From assembly GCA_963715985.1 (NCBI GenBank), contig CAVQSP010000010.1, positions 160,001 through 224,000 on the forward strand: 64,000 nucleotides of DNA. Reading direction: 5' to 3'. The position numbers were made by a program, and so were the translations under genes. Position 1 is the first letter of the stretch, and each line of letters opens with the position of its first letter. Of the stretch, positions 472 through 18,899 are shown piece by piece. This stretch comes from an uncultured Thermoleophilia bacterium (lineage in GTDB: Bacteria; Actinomycetota; Thermoleophilia; UBA2241). The notes below the pieces were generated by a model. That model had not been told where the DNA came from, did no database searches, and worked only from the letters and a program-made list of their open reading frames with translations.

Positions 472-1086
472 GTGGCTCGGTATCGCAACGAAGAAGAAGC
501 CCTCATCGGCCTCGCGAGGCAGCTGGCCGACGCGTGCCGTGAGGCCAAGTCGGACGAGGACGAGGAGTACGCGACCGACGCCATCAACGACTTCCTCCGC
601 GACAACGACCAGCACGCCCCCGCCGAGGCTCTCATCGCCCTGCTCGACATGCCCATGAGCAAACGCACGTGGCCGCTCGTGGACAGCGTCGAGGAGACGC
701 TCATCGGCCGCGGCTGGGAGGTCGTCGAGCCGCTGTTGGCGGCGACGCAGGGCCGCGTGTACGACCTCGCCGGCCCGGTGCCCCAGCGCGCCCGCGAGAC
801 GCTCTCCGGGCTCAGCCACGCGCGCCTGATCTTCGGCCTCGTCGACGTGCTGCGAGGCAAGGCCGACGACGACCTCAAGCGCGCCGCCGTGACCGACCTG
901 GTGGCGCTGGGCGACACGGCGGAGCCGGCGCTGCTCGAGGCGCTGGACCATCCCGCCGCGCGCCGCTGGGCCCAGGACGCCCTCGGCGACCTGCGCGCGG
1001 CGCGTGAAGAGGCGAAGCTGACCGAGGACCTGGAGCGGGCGGCCTCGGGTGAGGACCGCGTGGGAGGGAGAACGCGGGATGAGTGA
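472..1086 (+). CDS. HEAT-repeat-like helical hypothetical protein
   Basis: Helical LKRAAVTDLVALGD / RRWAQDALGDL repeats; GTG start 6 nt after TAGGAT. Confidence 0.6.
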   Translation: MARYRNEEEALIGLARQLADACREAKSDEDEEYATDAINDFLRDNDQHAPAEALIALLDMPMSKRTWPLVDSVEETLIGRGWEVVEPLLAATQGRVYDLAGPVPQRARETLSGLSHARLIFGLVDVLRGKADDDLKRAAVTDLVALGDTAEPALLEALDHPAARRWAQDALGDLRAAREEAKLTEDLERAASGEDRVGGRTRDE

Positions 1087-2500
1087 AGGTACGGCGCTCG
1101 CCGGCCTCGCGGCGGGGGTGGCCGCCGGGGAGGTGAGCGCCGAGGCGCTGGTGGCGAGGGCCTACGAGCGCGTCGGCAGTCTGAACGGGCAGGTCAACGC
1201 CGTCGTCGCGCTGCGCGACGAAGAGGAGGCGCTGGCCGAGGCGCGCGCGCTCGACGAGAGCGTCGGCCGGGGCGAGCGTCTCGGCGCTCTGGCGGGGGTG
1301 CCGTTCCTCGTCAAGGACGCGCAGGATCTCGCCGGCGTGCCCACCCGACACGGCTCGCTGCTGTTTGAGCGCGCGCCGCCCGCCGCTCGCGACACCCTTG
1401 CCGTGGCGCGTCTGCGGGCCGCTGGGGCGATCCCGGTCGGCAAGTCCAGCGTGCCGGAGTTCTGCTTCGAGGGATTCACGGCCAGCCGGCTCTCGGGGGA
1501 CACGCTCAACCCGTGGGCCCTGGATTGGTCGCCGGGCGGCTCGAGCGGCGGCTCCGCCGCCGCCATGGCCGCCGGCATGGTCCCGTTCGCCACGGCCACC
1601 GACGGCGGCGGCTCCGTGCGCATCCCGGCCGCCTTCTGCGGCCTCTACGGACTCAAGCCCACCAACGGTGTCATCGCCCGCGACCCCGTCCCCCAGTGGA
1701 TCGACTTCACCACGGACGGGCCGCTGGCGCTGTCGATGGCCGACCTGCGGCTGCTGCTGCACGTGCAGGCCGGCCCCTCCTCCGGTGACCCCACCGCCCT
1801 GCCGGAAGACGCGCTGCGCGGCCTGCTGTCCGGGCGCCCGGCCAGTCGGCCGTCGCTGGTGCTGGCCGCGCCGCGCTTCGTGGACTGGGGCCCGCTGCCA
1901 AACGCCATCGCGGACCTGTTCGACGCGGCCCTGACGAGCCTGGAGAAGGACCTCGGGGTGCGCGTGGAGCCGCTGGCGCCGGGGCAGATCTTCGGCGGGC
2001 TCAACATCGACGAAGACTGGTTCATCACCGGCGCCTGCGAGCAGGCGCGGGCCTTCGGGGAGGAGGCCGTGGAGGCTGAGGCCGACCGGCTGCACCCCGC
2101 GTTTCTCACGGCCATGCGCCACGGCCTGCGCGTGACGCTGGACGAGTACCTGGCGGCGCGCCGCCGGCGCTTCGACTACGTGCGCGCCCTCGACGACCTG
2201 CTGGGCGCCGACCGCGTGATCGTCACGCCGACGATGCCGGTGACCGGGTTCCTGGCGGACGGCCGCGAGGTGGGCGCCGACCACCCGGGCACGGCGTCGT
2301 CCTCCTACAACACGCAGGCACAGAACATGACGGGCCACCCGGCCCTCTCGGTGCCCGCGGGCGTCGCCCCCAACGGCGTGCCCTTCGGACTGCAGATCAC
2401 CGGCCCGCGCTTCGCCGACCCGCTCGTCCTGGCCCTCGGCGAGGCCTGGGAGCAGGTCCATCCGGCGCGCCGCGCGGCGCCCGGCTACCAGGCGTTCTGA
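1079..2500 (+). CDS. Amidase (amidase signature family)
   Basis: GVPFLVKD, PGGSSGGSAAA, TDGGGSVRIPA; ATG overlaps upstream gene. Confidence 0.93.
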   Translation: MSEGTALAGLAAGVAAGEVSAEALVARAYERVGSLNGQVNAVVALRDEEEALAEARALDESVGRGERLGALAGVPFLVKDAQDLAGVPTRHGSLLFERAPPAARDTLAVARLRAAGAIPVGKSSVPEFCFEGFTASRLSGDTLNPWALDWSPGGSSGGSAAAMAAGMVPFATATDGGGSVRIPAAFCGLYGLKPTNGVIARDPVPQWIDFTTDGPLALSMADLRLLLHVQAGPSSGDPTALPEDALRGLLSGRPASRPSLVLAAPRFVDWGPLPNAIADLFDAALTSLEKDLGVRVEPLAPGQIFGGLNIDEDWFITGACEQARAFGEEAVEAEADRLHPAFLTAMRHGLRVTLDEYLAARRRRFDYVRALDDLLGADRVIVTPTMPVTGFLADGREVGADHPGTASSSYNTQAQNMTGHPALSVPAGVAPNGVPFGLQITGPRFADPLVLALGEAWEQVHPARRAAPGYQAF

Positions 2501-2594
2501 GCCGGAGCGGTCGCCGAGGAGCCGTCACGGCAGCGTGTCCCCGGCGGCACAATCTTCCGCAACGCCGACGCAACACGCACTTCATAATCGCCGA

Positions 2595-2790
2595 CAAGAA
2601 TGGCACCAAGCCATACGACGGCATCGACGGCTGCCCCCCCGGCCGTCGGGACGCGACAGAGTCCGGTGCGCCCCCACCGTGTCGCTCCCAAGTTGCCCGG
2701 GCGGATCACCTCCTGCGCCCGGGAGCCGCTGGCCCCACATGGGCCGCGACGACTGCCCCCCAGTCGTCGCGGCCCATCCCCCTTTCTGGA
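2595..2790 (+). ncRNA. Candidate sRNA with four C-rich-loop hairpins (6C-like)
   Basis: Hairpins 2625-2648, 2648-2689, 2696-2723 and 2739-2777; CATAAT at 2583-2588; lies between convergent genes. Confidence 0.55.
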
Positions 2791-2845
2791 GCCTGTCGTC
2801 GGCGGCGTACGCCCGCGACCGAGGCCGCTCGGCCGGCGGGCCGTT

Positions 2846-4220
2846 TCAGGGCGTGACCGTCTCCACCGCGAACGACGCCCAGTTGAGTGCCTCGCTCAAC
2901 GTGGGGTGGACGGCGCGCGTGGCCTGAACGTCGTCCAGCGTGGCCCCTGCGCGCACGGCCACGGCGAGGCCGTAGATGAGCTCGGCGGCGTGCGGGCCCG
3001 CCAGGTGGGCGCCCACGAGGCGGCCGTCCTGCTCGGCGAGGAGCTTGACCAGGCCGCCGCGCCGATCGCTGATGATGGCCTGCGCGACCCACTCGAAGTC
3101 CCCGCGGGCGACCTGGTACGGGGCGCCGCGCGCGGCCAGCTCGGCTTCGCCGAGCCCCACGCGCGCCACCTCCGGCACGGTGAAGCAGGTGCTCGGCACC
3201 AGCGTCAGGTCGGGCGCCGTGGGTTCGCCGCCGACGATGCTCTGCGCGACCGCCTCGCCCTCGAGGCCGGCGACCGGCGTGAGCTGGACGCCGCCGGCCG
3301 CGTCTCCGGCGAACCACACGCGCGGGTTGCTCGTGCTGCGCAGGAAGGCGTCCAGGACCGGGCGGCCGCGCTCGTCGACGGCGACCTCGCCGGCGGCGAG
3401 GTCGAGGCCGTCGTAGTCGGGCCGCCGCCCCGTGGCCGCCAGGACCTGCTCGCAGGCCAGAGCGAGCGGACGACCCCCGGCGTCTTCGATCCTCACGGTG
3501 AGCGCCCCCGGGTCTCCCTCGATGCCCCGGATGCGCGCGTCCGTCACGAACGTCACCCCACCGGCCTCGAGGCCGCTCCGCGCGAGCGCGGCGGCCTCCG
3601 GGTCGAAGCCTCTCAGCACCTCGGAGCCGCGGAGCACCACCGTCACCTGCGTGCCGAGGGCGGCGTAGATGCCGGCGAACTCCATGGCGATGTAGCCGCC
3701 GCCCATCACGACCAGCGAGGCCGGCTGTCGCGGGTACCGCAGGGCGTCGTCGCTGGTGCCGGCGAGCTCGATGCCCGGCAGCGTGCGGCTTCACCGGCTG
3801 CGAGCCCGTGGCGACGACGATGTGGACGGGCTCTATCGCGTGGCCGCCGGCCATGACCTCAGCCGCCGACGCGAAGCGGGCGTCGCCGTGGACCACCTCT
3901 ACGCCGAGGCTCCTGAGCGCGCCCTCCTGGTCGCCGGCGTAGGCCTGCTGCATCTCCAGCCGCCACGCCATGAGCCGCGACCAGTCCAGTGCAGGCGGCC
4001 CGGGGGCGAAGCCCATGCGGGCCGCCTCCGCCGCCTCCCGGCGGGTCTGGGCGGCCGTGTACAGTGCCTTCTTGGGCACGCAGCCGCGCCACAGGCACGT
4101 GCCGCCGAACTCGCCGCGGTCCACGACCGTGACCGTGAGGCCCGCGGCCGCCGCGCTCCGCGCCACGCGCGTCCCCGCGGCCCCGGCGCCGATGACCAGC
4201 ACGTCCCGTTTCTCAGTCAT
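2846..4220 (-). CDS. Pyridine nucleotide-disulfide oxidoreductase (Lpd/Gor/MerA class), one frameshift near 3786
   Basis: GAGAAG, GGTCLWRGCVPKK, GGGYIAMEF, AGD, HPTLSE; halves in two frames joined by one extra base. Confidence 0.88.
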
Positions 4221-16339: not shown

Positions 16340-18899
16340 TCACTCGTACTGGATGGCCTCCAGGATCCTCGTGCCGGCGGCGCGGCGCGCCGGCAGCACC
16401 GCCGCGATCACGCCGACGACCACGGAGAGCACGAGGAAGACCGCGAGCTGCGTGTACGGCAGGCTGAAGGTCAGCCCGTCGCCGCCCAGCTGGGTGACGA
16501 ACACGTAGGCCATGGCGATGCCGACCGCCGTGCCGAGCACCCCGCCGATCACGGCGGTGATGACGCTCTCGTAGCGCACCATCTGGCGGAGCTGTCGCCG
16601 GGTGGCGCCGATGGCGCGCAGCATGCCGATCTCGCGCGTCCGCTCGTGGACGCTCAGCACCAGGGTGTTGACGATGCCGAAGATCGAGATGATGACGCTC
16701 ATCGCGAGCAGACCGTAGAACATCATCAGGATCTGGTCGACCTGCTTGTTGATCGTGTCGAGATACTCGCCCTTGGTCATGACCTTCTGCGTCGGGAAGG
16801 CCGACAGCGCCTTCCGCACCGCGTCCTGCGTCGCTTCGACGTTGGCGCCGTCCTGCATGCGCACCATCGTGATGACGGATGCGGTCGGCAGGTCGAGGGC
16901 CTTGAAGGCGTCCAGGCTGGTGACCATGCCCGTGAACGCCATCTGGTCGCGGTAGAAGCCGAGCACGGTGAACTGGGCCTTCTTGCTGCCCTGCGTCATC
17001 ACGGTGATGGTGTCGCCTGCCTTGACCTTGTCCGCGAGTGGCGAGCCGTCCTCGAGCAGGACGTGGTGGGCGTCAAGCCTGGCGAAGAGGGCGTCGCTGC
17101 CGCCGTGCTTCCAGTCGAGCGCCCAGACGCGGGCGAAGACGGCGGGGTCGACGGCGTAGGCGCTCATGACCCCGCCCTTCTTGACCTTGACATCGGCGTA
17201 GCCGGTGCCGGCGGCGGTGTCGACGCCCTGGACGGCGTCCAGAGAGCGGATGGTCTTCTGCGGCACGCCCATGAACGCGGTGCGGTCCTGTGCGACCAGC
17301 TCTGCCCGCGTGGACTTCTCGATCGCGCCTCCGAACGAGCTCTTCATGAGCCTGGGCGAACACGGCGATGAACACGACCAGGGCGAGGCCGATCATGAGC
17401 GCGGCGGCCGTGGCGGCCGTGCGGCTCGGGTTGCGGCCGGCGTTGTCGCGGGCCAGACGGCCGCTGGTGGGCGCCAGCTTCTCCAGCGGCCAGCCGATGA
17501 CCCGGCTTGCCGGCCGCACGATGTACTTCGCCAGCATCGCGATGGCGACGAAGAGGAGCAGCGCGCCGATGCCCATGGAGAGCAGACGGTTGTTGGTCGC
17601 CCCGTCGCTGAAGATGCCGTAGGCGAGCGAGGCGGCGCCGAGGGCGGCGATGGCCACGGCGATCGCCGTCGTGAACTTCGTGAAGCGGGTCGGCGGCAGG
17701 GCCGCGCCCTCCTGGAGGGCGGCCACCGGCGGTACGCGCGTCGCGCGCATGGCCGGAGCCAGGGCGGAGACCAGGGTCACGCCGACGCCGACGAGTGCGG
17801 CGATGAGGATCGTCCGCGGCTCGAGGGCGATGCCGGCGGTCGGGATGTCGGCACCCATCGCCTTGAAGAGCGCGTTGATGCCCTTGGCGACGCCGAGGCC
17901 GGCGACGATGCCGGCGGCGGAGGCGAGTACGCCCAGCGTGAGCGCCTCGGCGACCACGGAGCGGAGCACCTGGCGCCGGCTGGCGCCGAGGGCGCGCAGC
18001 ATGGCGAACTCGCGGCGCCGCTGCGCCACAGTGATGCTGAAGGCGTTGAAGATGATGAACGCGCCGACGAAGACGGAGACGCCGGCGAACGCGAGGAGGA
18101 TCGGCGTGAGGAAGCCGGTGATGGAGGCGGCCGTTTCGCTGGTCGCGTCGGCGGCCGCCTGCTCGCCGGTCTTGACACTCACCGTCGCCGGCACGACGGT
18201 CTTGACGCGCGCGGCGAGCTCCTTGGGGGTCACGCCGGGGTCGGCGGCGATCGAGACGCCGCTCAGCTTGCCCGGCTCGCGGCCCCAGCGCTGCACGTCC
18301 TGCAGCCTGCCGGCGATCACGATGGTGCCGCCCATGGAGCCGGACTCGCCCCACGTGAACACGCCGGTGACCTTGACGTGCTGCAGGCCGGCCGCGGCGG
18401 CGACGTCGAAGCTGTCGCCCGGCTTCAGGCCTTCCTTGTCGGCGAAGCTCTTGATGATGCTGACTTCGTTGGCTGCCTGCGCGTCGCGCCCGGCGACGAG
18501 ACGGGCCTGGTTGAAGGGCGGGCCCGGGTTCGTGGTCAGCAGGGTCGGGGCGCCGCCGGTCTGGACGGTCTTGCCGTCCACGATCGCGGCGCCCAGCGTC
18601 TGGTACGTGCCGGCGGCCCTGGCGACGCCCGGCACCCCCTGGATCTGCGCGAGCATCGTGGTGTTCAGCGTCTGTGGGGTGGTGCCGCTGCTGTCCATCG
18701 CGGTGAACGCCGTCTTGGGTGACACCTGCACGGCGGTACCTTTGAACGACGTCTGGAAGATGTTGGCGAATCCGTTGTCGATCTGATCTGTCAGCACGTA
18801 CGTGCCGGTGATCATCGCCACGCCGAGCAGGATCGCCAGAAGCGTGAGGACGGTCCGGAGTGGCCGGCTGGCCAGGCTGCGGAAGGCGAGGCGGGTCAT
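16340..18899 (-). CDS. FtsX/MacB-like ABC permease with two FtsX units, frameshift near 17350
   Basis: [14 protein letters not shown] and [14 protein letters not shown] motifs. Confidence 0.88.

What the first reader, a model, noticed from the sequence alone, without database searches (positions are those of the whole stretch)
2583..2790. Candidate sRNA of four C-rich-loop hairpins, one displaying the 16S anti-Shine-Dalgarno sequence
Seen: after CATAAT (2583-2588) come four consecutive hairpins: cgacggct-gCCCCCCC-ggccgtcg (2625-2648); a long stem capped by cggtg-cgCCCC-caccg (2648-2689); cccgggcg-GATCACCTCCTg-cgcccggg (2696-2723); and a perfect 17-bp stem with a CCCCC loop (2739-2777) followed by ccccctttct. 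GGATCACCTCCT (2703-2714) is identical to the conserved 3' end of 16S rRNA. Known: actinobacterial 6C RNA has two C-loop hairpins that pair with G-rich mRNA sites, and alphaproteobacterial cuckoo/AbcR RNAs use CCUCC loops. Inference: an expanded, possibly undescribed RBS-targeting sRNA that could repress leadered but not leaderless mRNAs.
Basis: partly seen in the sequence, partly recalled or inferred. Interest (0 to 1): 0.8.

Follow-up and report, generated by a model that had tools for sequence, protein, structure and literature searches.

The report
New three-loop C-rich small RNA
This is a real, previously uncatalogued small RNA gene of an uncultured group of soil and sediment Actinobacteria; three of its hairpin loops are rich in cytosine, so it probably silences messenger RNAs by covering their ribosome-binding sites, like several known bacterial small RNAs.

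Summary
The four hairpins fold far better than shuffles (z -6.3). The HP3 loop 12-mer equals the 3' tail of this organism's own 16S rRNA.

The element is a conserved gene of about 200 nt. It has three copies in this genome. It matched in 52 of 53 other genomes of the genus, labelled "uncultured Thermoleophilia". There were no convincing matches in 135 other genomes of the class or 150 of the phylum.

The helices covary: 33 of 47 pairs show double changes, and 0 of 500 shuffles do as well. About 45 nt of promoter-like sequence upstream is conserved, and conservation stops after the terminator tail.

Three loops are conserved:
- a C-run in 79 of 79 copies;
- CCCC in 78 of 79;
- CCUCC in 69 of 79.

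The terminator's C-loop (16 of 79) and the long 16S identity (1 of 79) are not conserved. No Rfam family reaches threshold, and 6C is not even listed.

Best reading: a new trans-acting sRNA family that pairs with G-rich or Shine-Dalgarno sites, working like 6C, RoxS or cuckoo RNAs without being a member of any. The function is inferred, not shown.

The parts
2546..2588 (+). Conserved promoter-like region. It holds three direct CAAY repeats 10-11 nt apart (CAAT 2550-2553, CAAC 2560-2563, CAAC 2571-2574), the near-invariant GCAACAC (2570-2576) and a -10-like CATAAT (2583-2588).
   Evidence: The consensus of the 80 nt upstream of 77 distinct copies is ..CGgC..AAccT.cCTCAAcgccg.CgcAACACgg.CTTCAtATT. 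Conservation starts about 45 nt upstream and is absent further out. The simple sigma-70 scan finds no canonical promoter. The role of the repeats as a binding site is inferred.
2589..2624 (+). 5' part of the predicted transcript (start about 2595, inferred). It has a variable stretch followed by the conserved unpaired CAAGCCAUACGACGGCA (2607-2623). CGGC at 2619-2622 may pair with GCCG at 2725-2728 to close a junction around HP1-HP3.
   Evidence: Nearly invariant columns are listed. The closing helix is paired in 82.9% of cells, but only one pair covaries (GC to AU in 7 sequences), so it is tentative. The ATGGC/GCCAT hairpin of the single-sequence fold is not kept in other copies, judged by eye.
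2625..2648 (+). HP1: a 7-8 bp stem displaying the loop GCCCCCCC (2633-2640).
   Evidence: Helix 1 is paired in 97.1% of cells, and 4 of 7 pairs change on both sides. The loop has a run of at least 4 C in 79 of 79 distinct copies, at least 5 C in 75 and at least 7 C in 53.
2648..2689 (+). HP2: a long interrupted stem capped by cggtg-CGCCCC-caccg (inner hairpin 2664-2679).
   Evidence: The inner helix is paired in 97.2% of cells, with 4 of 5 pairs changing on both sides. The outer helix is paired in 73.1%, with 8 of 10 pairs changing on both sides. The loop holds CCCC in 78 of 79 copies.
2696..2723 (+). HP3: an 8-bp stem displaying the loop GAUCACCUCCUG (2704-2715), which holds the anti-Shine-Dalgarno core.
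   Evidence: Helix 4 is paired in 94.3% of cells, with 5 of 8 pairs changing on both sides. CCTCC is in 69 of 79 loops and CCTCCT in 53. In this copy, 12 nt equal the tail of the organism's own 16S.
2724..2738 (+). Unpaired linker AGCCGCUGGCCCCAC holding a further C-rich stretch, GGCCCC (2731-2736).
   Evidence: GGCCCC is present in the linker of 65 of 79 copies.
2739..2790 (+). Terminator hairpin (17 bp, 2739-2777, loop CCCCC) followed by the tail CCCCCUUUCUGG.
   Evidence: Helix 5 is paired in 96.1% of cells, with 12 of 17 pairs changing on both sides. The 10 nt after the stem hold on average 3.8 T on the + strand, against 0.75 on the - strand. Conservation ends right after the tail. The loop has at least 4 C in only 16 of 79 copies. 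The consensus terminator scan does not call it, because it needs 5 T in 8.

Best explanation
Positions about 2595-2790 (+ strand) encode a stand-alone, trans-acting small RNA of about 200 nt. It is driven by its own conserved promoter (2546-2588) and ended by a strong hairpin terminator.

The RNA belongs to a new family found in one genus of uncultured Thermoleophilia (Actinomycetota). Genomes carry one to at least five paralogous copies, and this one carries three.

Three hairpins hold conserved C-rich loops open: a C-run, GCCCCC and (A)CCUCCU. A fourth C-rich stretch, GGCCCC, lies unpaired before the terminator.

The most likely mechanism is that these loops act as seeds. They would base-pair, G-C rich and probably without a chaperone, with G-runs and GGAGG Shine-Dalgarno sequences in the translation-initiation regions of several mRNAs. 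That would block ribosome binding or change mRNA stability. 6C does this in mycobacteria, and RoxS and FsrA do it in Bacillus.

Shown here: gene-like conservation, structure with covariation, strand, the loop motifs and copy number. Inferred: the transcription start, the pairing with mRNAs and its outcome.
For: 1. Conservation as a unit.
- blastn and a covariance model built here (R1) find full-length matches in 52 of 53 other genomes of the genus and 15 of 15 in the class draw.
- There are three copies in this genome: 181, 165.7 and 88.2 bits.

2. Structure.
- On 79 distinct copies, 91.2% of cells pair, against 83.3% in shuffles.
- 33 of 47 pairs have changes on both sides, and 0 of 500 shuffles reach any of the five measures.
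- Slid controls pair in only 32-52% of cells. That alignment was fitted to the model, but the MAFFT alignment of 39 copies gives the same picture: 89.2% paired, 25 pairs with double changes, 0 of 500 shuffles.

3. Loops are kept while stems change.
- HP1 has a run of at least 4 C in 79 of 79 copies.
- HP2 has CCCC in 78 of 79.
- HP3 has CCTCC in 69 of 79.

4. It behaves as its own transcription unit.
- About 45 nt upstream are conserved, including a -10-like CAyAtT.
- Conservation stops after the terminator tail.

5. The strand is +.
- G-U cells outnumber A-C cells 173 to 79.
- The T-rich tail exists only on the + strand.

6. It is not a leader of the next gene.
- In this window the downstream gene converges on it: a Pyr_redox oxidoreductase on the - strand. 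The upstream gene is an amidase.
- Across copies, downstream genes lie in either orientation.

7. It is inherited vertically. The same neighbourhoods recur across species:
- amidase / sRNA / Pyr_redox;
- an unknown protein of about 300 aa / sRNA / TetR or hydrolase;
- MsrB / tandem sRNAs / ABC ATPase.

8. Plausible targets exist in this genome.
- GGAGG, AGGAGG, G6 and G7 lie 4-13 nt before candidate start codons at ORF 5' ends 2.6, 3.6, 3.2 and 3.6 times as often as random positions (rate 0.0113).
- Six control words, including CCTCC and CCCCCC, lie at 0.8-1.0 times.

9. A precedent exists. C-rich loops of 6C bind G-rich ribosome-binding sites without a chaperone (PMC6486639, passages read).

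10. There is a weak hint of expression. Short contigs (128-180 nt) of relatives of this RNA stand in four metatranscriptome libraries, covering parts of 2547-2793.
Against: - No experiment, and no raw RNA reads, show a transcript, its ends or its level. The RNA-library evidence is assembled contigs of relatives (90-97% alike). Such libraries can hold DNA, and one contig (X19) covers 2547-2690, upstream of the predicted start.
- The consensus scans call neither a sigma-70 promoter nor an intrinsic terminator here. The -35 region is not canonical and the U-tail is short.
- No target is shown. The duplex ranking included stem nucleotides and has no control, so its top hits are only examples.
- CCUCC is missing from the HP3 loop in 10 of 79 copies.
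- The RBS-enrichment test uses home-made start-codon candidates, not a gene caller.
- The genome is a MAG, 88.8% complete with 7.29% contamination.
Confidence: 0.6

Rival explanations
1. Decoy or sponge RNA. The repeated C-rich loops do not act on mRNAs one by one. Instead they soak up a factor, such as a poly(C)-binding or KH-domain protein, or a G-rich small RNA, as CsrB does for CsrA or RosA for RoxS.
For: - Several similar single-stranded motifs displayed on separate hairpins, plus multiple gene copies, are the anatomy of a titrating RNA.
- G-rich sponge RNAs that pair with C-rich sRNAs are known (PMC8216469, passages).
Against: - No partner was identified.
- The three loops differ from each other (C7, GCCCCC, CCUCC), which fits several RNA targets better than one protein site.
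- CsrA and Hfq are, as far as I recall, absent from Actinobacteria. That was not tested here.
Confidence: 0.15
2. Global 16S-tail mimic. When induced, the CCUCC loop competes with ribosomes for Shine-Dalgarno sequences in general. Translation would then shift from leadered to leaderless mRNAs, rather than a defined regulon being controlled.
For: - The HP3 loop copies the 16S tail over 12 nt in this copy.
- The loop holds CCUCC in 69 of 79 copies and CCUCCU in 53 of 79.
- Several gene copies could give high dosage.
Against: - The long identity is in 1 of 79 copies, and the conserved part is only 5-7 nt.
- The two best-conserved loops are C-runs, not anti-SD sequences.
- Stoichiometric competition with ribosomes would need very high levels, and nothing is known about levels.
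Confidence: 0.1
3. A cis-acting element rather than a gene: a 3' UTR or terminator cluster of the amidase gene, or a leader or riboswitch of a downstream gene.
For: - It lies 89 nt after the stop of the amidase ORF (1049..2500) on the same strand.
- The amidase neighbour recurs in several species.
- One RNA-library contig extends upstream of the predicted start.
Against: - Other copies follow unrelated genes: an unknown protein, MsrB, DAO and UPF0182.
- The conserved promoter-like 45 nt travels with every copy.
- In this window the downstream gene is on the opposite strand, so it cannot be a leader here.
- Tandem copies each carry the upstream motif.
Confidence: 0.05
4. A mobile or dispersed repeat (REP/MITE-like), or a small protein gene.
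For: - It is multi-copy.
- Several copies sit at contig ends in fragmented MAGs.
- A long ORF (2600..3856 +) formally starts inside it.
Against: - There are only 3 copies in 4.35 Mb.
- Copies sit in syntenic places.
- Copies within one genome differ by 13% or more, with compensatory changes.
- No terminal inverted repeats were seen.
- Copy lengths differ by non-multiples of three (192-209 nt), and loop lengths differ by single bases, which is incompatible with a conserved reading frame.
Confidence: 0.03

Closest known systems
6C / B11 sRNA of Actinomycetes (Rfam RF01066; PMC6486639)
   Same: - Same phylum.
- Hairpins that display loops of consecutive cytosines.
- In 6C those loops bind G-rich ribosome-binding sites of many mRNAs without a chaperone (passages read). 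This is the mechanism proposed here.
   Different: - No detectable homology. 6C is not among the matches at E<=10 on this region.
- The best 6C score anywhere in this genome is 20.4 bits, against a cut-off of 47.
- About 200 nt rather than the 75 model positions of 6C.
- Three display hairpins plus a terminator.
- One loop is an anti-SD CCUCC rather than a C-run.
- Several paralogous copies per genome.
Cuckoo RNAs of Alphaproteobacteria (CcsR1-4/RSs0680, ar14, NfeR1; PMC4615179)
   Same: - A modular row of 2-4 hairpins with anti-SD-like C/U-rich loops.
- Multiple paralogous and sometimes tandem copies per genome, with fragmented synteny (abstract and section 6 read).
- These families give the best, though sub-threshold, Rfam scores here: ar7 23.6 bits, CcsR1 19.9 and ar14 15.
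   Different: - All scores are far below the gathering thresholds (60, 65.3 and 58.8).
- It is in a different phylum.
- Cuckoo hairpins all carry the same CCUCCUCCC motif. Here the three loops differ and only one holds CCUCC.
RoxS/RsaE, FsrA and CsfG of Firmicutes (C-rich-region sRNAs; PMC8216469)
   Same: - Several C-rich regions in unpaired positions are used to pair with mRNA targets.
- No Hfq-type chaperone is needed (passages read, plus my own recall for the chaperone point).
   Different: - No Rfam match to RsaE at E<=10.
- Different phylum, size and architecture.
Scr3202 of Streptomyces (Rfam RF02833)
   Same: The weak alignment covers CCAAG, a hairpin with a C-rich loop and a terminator hairpin.
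   Different: It scores 23.1 bits against a cut-off of 52, with E 0.47. It covers only the 3' half and probably reflects a generic shape.

Membership tests
6C RNA (RF01066) | Match to the Rfam covariance model at or above 47 bits. | tested here: not met
   There is no 6C row among the 11 matches at E<=10 on 2400-2950. The window has 0 matches at gathering score. The best 6C score in the genome is 20.4 bits, at another place. In the class scan 0 of 121 genomes were over the cut-off, but the control genome C. glutamicum also stayed below it, so that scan is insensitive.
6C RNA (RF01066) | Two hairpins whose loops carry conserved runs of cytosines. | tested here: met
   The HP1 and HP2 loops have C-runs in 79 of 79 and 78 of 79 copies. 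This is a likeness of design, not evidence of descent.
6C RNA (RF01066) | C-rich loops pair with G-rich leaders and repress translation. | not testable with these tools
   There is only indirect support: G-runs and GGAGG are enriched before candidate starts.
Cuckoo RNAs (CcsR1 RF02791, ar14 RF02344, ar7 RF02342) | Match to the family models at gathering score. | tested here: not met
   CcsR1 scores 19.9 against 65.3, ar14 15 against 58.8 and ar7 23.6 against 60 bits.
Cuckoo RNAs (CcsR1 RF02791, ar14 RF02344, ar7 RF02342) | Every hairpin loop carries the same CCUCCUCCC motif (PMC4615179 abstract). | tested here: not met
   The loops are GCCCCCCC, CGCCCC and xxACCUCCUx. Only HP3 holds CCUCC.
Cuckoo RNAs (CcsR1 RF02791, ar14 RF02344, ar7 RF02342) | Several paralogous copies, some in tandem. 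| tested here: met
   There are 3 copies in G000. Tandem pairs occur in G004, G010, G064 and G069.
RsaE/RoxS | Match to the Rfam model. | tested here: not met
   It is not listed at E<=10.
Scr3202 (RF02833) | Match at 52 bits or more. | tested here: not met
   23.1 bits, E 0.47.
Intrinsic (Rho-independent) terminator | A G+C-rich hairpin followed by a U-tract. | tested here: inconclusive
   The 17-bp stem is conserved with covariation. The tail is CCCCCUUUCU, with on average 3.8 T in 10 nt, and it fails the scan's rule of 5 T in 8.
REP / MITE-type dispersed repeat | Many dispersed copies, non-syntenic insertion and terminal repeats. | tested here: not met
   There are 3 copies in 4.35 Mb, and neighbourhoods are shared between species.

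The most novel reading that the evidence does not exclude
The family is a signal-controlled translational switch. A response-regulator-type activator binds the three CAAY direct repeats, 10-11 nt apart, that replace the -35 box, and induces several paralogous RNAs at once. Their CCUCC and C-run loops mimic the 16S tail and mask Shine-Dalgarno and G-run ribosome-binding sites genome-wide. Translation would then shift towards leaderless mRNAs during stress or dormancy in these slow-growing soil Actinobacteria.
Probability: 0.1. Interest if true: 0.8.

Novelty: new variant of a known kind. Interest (0 to 1): 0.45.

Why it matters
Thermoleophilia are abundant in soils and sediments but almost uncultured. 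The full-text searches run here found no paper on a small RNA from them.

This family is a well-supported regulatory RNA for the class. It has a ready covariance model, about 80 distinct sequences and clear seed candidates.

It also adds an independent case to the pattern that high-GC and Gram-positive bacteria lacking Hfq use C-rich loops against G-rich ribosome-binding sites. It combines the 6C type of loop (a C-run) and the cuckoo type (CCUCC) in one molecule.

It is not a new principle. Similar anti-SD-loop RNAs have been flagged repeatedly in other lineages of this scan.

Tried and rejected
- **Rfam.** The window gave nothing at gathering score. At E<=10 there were only sub-threshold, generic hits.

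- **Consensus scan.** It found no promoter or terminator in 2300-3000.

- **RNAalifold.** On the MAFFT alignment it missed HP3 because of loop indels, and it proposed a long-range GGG/CCC pairing that I did not adopt. I supplied the structure by hand instead.

- **Closing helix CGGC/GCCG.** It shows only weak covariation and is kept as tentative. One search was a length slip of the same request.

- **Weak blastn hit of the 5' part.** The hit at window 18389-18445 (-), and at like places in relatives, reads as ordinary coding sequence and is unrelated.

- **Weak model hits outside the genus.** G041 (41.9 bits), G176 (29.7) and G109 (28.3) lack the C-rich loops or match mainly the terminator, so I do not count them.

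- **Sequencing runs.** DNA runs from soil, wetland and freshwater sediment hold half or more of the words. RNA runs hold small shares. When laid, they give only short contigs of relatives. The absence of cover over the flanking genes in those RNA runs is not evidence of anything.

- **Target ranking by RNAduplex.** I ranked about 10,800 candidate start regions. The top examples are real genes: a 4Fe-4S protein, an ArsP-type permease, Zn- and Fe-alcohol dehydrogenases, an ABC ATPase, an MFS transporter and an aminotransferase. However, the query pieces included stem bases and there was no control, so I draw no conclusion.

- **Regulon search with the promoter motif.** It found only this copy, plus a partial look-alike at C17:205480.

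- **Earlier notes of this scan.** There was nothing on this genome or sequence.

Full report
**What is there**

The flagged stretch lies in a 345-nt gap between two convergent genes. Upstream is an amidase ORF on the + strand, ending at 2500. Downstream is a pyridine-nucleotide-disulphide oxidoreductase on the - strand, ending near 2846.

The + strand of 2583-2800 folds at -113.7 kcal/mol, with z -6.31 against 200 shuffles.

The genome's own 16S rRNA gene is at C14:56314-57864. It ends ...GGCTGGATCACCTCCTTTCT. The 12-mer in the HP3 loop is therefore a true copy of this organism's anti-Shine-Dalgarno tail.

**It is a conserved gene, not a chance cluster of hairpins**

- blastn of 2560-2800 finds a second copy in the same genome (87% identical). 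It also finds strong matches in all 24 same-genus genomes drawn, except G021, whose best match was E 0.004.
- I aligned 39 copies (A1), wrote the four-hairpin structure on the alignment and counted pairs. 89.2% of cells pair, against 83.1% in shuffles. 25 of 47 pairs change on both sides. 0 of 500 shuffles do as well, and slid controls pair in 33-46% of cells.
- A covariance model built from this alignment (R1) finds three copies in this genome: C10:162589-162787 (the finding, 181 bits), C17:117292-117489 (165.7 bits) and a divergent C11:560891-561089 (88.2 bits).
- The model matches in 52 of 53 other genomes of the genus. G021 had no match. G071, 64% complete, had only a 33-bit 3' partial.
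- Up to five full-length matches are listed for one genome (G058). Tandem pairs occur in G004, G010, G064 and G069.
- In the other ten genera of the family, 11 of 35 genomes had a match at E<=0.001. None exceeded 42 bits, and most covered only the terminator part.
- In a draw of the class, 5 of 135 genomes outside the genus had such weak matches. In a draw of the phylum, 0 of 150 did.
- The model may miss more distant relatives, so I write 'not found in those searched', not 'absent'.
- Public records that hold the motif pair with the family's spacing are titled 'uncultured Thermoleophilia bacterium' or Actinomycetota.

**Anatomy from 79 distinct copies (A2)**

- Structure. 91.2% of cells pair. 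33 of 47 pairs change on both sides, and 0 of 500 shuffles reach this. This alignment is fitted to the model and so leans towards it, but the independent MAFFT alignment agrees.
- Loops are more constant than stems:
  - HP1 has a run of at least 4 C in 79 of 79 copies, and at least 7 C in 53.
  - HP2 has CCCC in 78 of 79.
  - HP3 has CCTCC in 69 of 79, CCTCCT in 53, ACCTCCT in 28, TCACCTCCT in 7 and ATCACCTCCT in 1, which is this copy.
  - The linker has GGCCCC in 65 of 79.
  - The terminator loop has at least 4 C in only 16 of 79.
- So the molecule has three conserved display loops plus one unpaired C-rich stretch. The fourth 'C-loop', and the long 16S identity, are local accidents of this copy or its subclade.
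- A four-base helix (CGGC/GCCG) may close a junction around HP1-HP3, but it has little covariation.

**Own transcription unit, + strand**

- The 45 nt upstream are conserved in 77 copies. Conservation vanishes further upstream and directly after the terminator tail.
- The conserved block holds a -10-like CAyAtT, a near-invariant GCAACAC, and three CAAY repeats 10-11 nt apart that overlap the -35 position. That layout is typical of activator-dependent promoters. This is an inference from general knowledge. The consensus scan sees no sigma-70 promoter.
- G-U cells outnumber A-C cells 173 to 79, and a T-rich tail follows the terminator only on the + strand.
- Copies lie behind different genes, and downstream genes are on either strand. 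The same three or four neighbourhoods recur between species. This speaks for paralogues inherited vertically, and against a leader, a 3' UTR or a mobile repeat.
- Copy lengths (192-209 nt) and loop lengths differ by single bases, so it does not encode a peptide.

**Expression**

- No raw RNA reads were available.
- Contigs assembled from four metatranscriptome libraries hold relatives of the RNA, 90-97% alike: 2640-2793, 2630-2727 (twice) and 2547-2690.
- This is a weak hint only. Such libraries can contain DNA, and the last contig starts upstream of the predicted start.

**How it probably works**

- The conserved single-stranded parts are C-runs and CCUCC.
- In this genome G-runs are rare. 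There are 174 G7 on both strands. By my own arithmetic, base composition alone would give thousands.
- G6, G7, GGAGG and AGGAGG lie 4-13 nt before candidate start codons 2.6-3.6 times as often as random positions. Six control words do not.
- For 6C of mycobacteria it was shown that C-rich loops bind G-rich ribosome-binding sites of many mRNAs without a chaperone (PMC6486639, passages). RoxS and FsrA use C-rich regions likewise (PMC8216469, passages).
- I therefore take base-pairing with G-rich or Shine-Dalgarno sites, with translational repression, as the most likely mechanism (confidence about 0.6).
- Rivals are a decoy for a protein or a G-rich RNA (0.15), global competition with the ribosome for SD sites (0.1), a cis element (0.05), and a repeat or peptide gene (0.03).

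**Comparison with known families**

- No Rfam family reaches its threshold. 6C is not listed even at E<=10, and it scores at most 20.4 bits anywhere in the genome.
- The best sub-threshold scores belong to alphaproteobacterial cuckoo-type RNAs (ar7, CcsR1, ar14) and to Streptomyces Scr3202.
- The RNA shares with cuckoo RNAs the modular row of hairpins, the anti-SD-like loop and the paralogous or tandem copies (PMC4615179, abstract and section 6). It lacks their uniform CCUCCUCCC loops.
- It works like these families but is a member of none.
- Full-text searches for small RNAs of Thermoleophilia, Gaiellales or Solirubrobacterales, and for anti-SD C-rich sRNAs of Actinobacteria, found nothing relevant. 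One search listed only the 6C literature.

**Verdict**

This is a real, well-supported and so far uncatalogued sRNA family, and a new variant of the known C-rich-loop kind. Function remains inferred.

Noticed in passing
G000:C11:560891-561089 (- strand; outside the window): A third, divergent paralogue (88.2 bits). It has the same architecture but different stem sequences. Its loops are GUCCCCCUC, CUGCCCU and GCUGACCUCCUC. It lies next to a DUF5131 gene.
   Followed up: partly
G004:C13:532169-532675; G010:C11:5855-6310; G064:C81:5251-5692; G069:C3:34016-34481: Tandem pairs of the sRNA, 60-125 nt apart. Each has its own upstream motif. They usually lie between an MsrB (SelR) gene and an ABC-transporter ATPase.
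   Followed up: partly
window 2550-2574: Three CAAY direct repeats at 10-11 nt spacing overlap the -35 position of the sRNA promoter and are conserved in most copies. This looks like a binding site for a direct-repeat-binding activator, but no factor was identified.
   Followed up: partly
G000:C17:~205480 (- strand; outside the window): A stretch resembling the sRNA promoter core (GCAACGCCGACGGCAACACGAAC) lies about 110 nt upstream of a protein-coding start. The frame behind that start hits an in-frame TAG after about 50 codons. It could be a shared regulator site, a pseudogene or chance.
   Followed up: no
whole genome G000: Runs of G or C are strongly avoided. There are 1146 G6 and 174 G7 on both strands in 4.35 Mb at 70% G+C, far below what base composition alone predicts by my arithmetic. 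The 6C paper reports similar avoidance for mycobacteria.
   Followed up: partly
window 18389-18445 (- strand): A weak blastn likeness to the 5' part of the sRNA recurs in relatives. It reads as ordinary protein-coding sequence and is unrelated.
   Followed up: yes
fragmented relatives (e.g. G014:C1, G019:C44, G019:C112, G019:C88): Several copies sit at or within a few hundred bases of contig ends, as expected if near-identical paralogues break short-read assemblies. Copy numbers in fragmented MAGs are therefore lower bounds.
   Followed up: no
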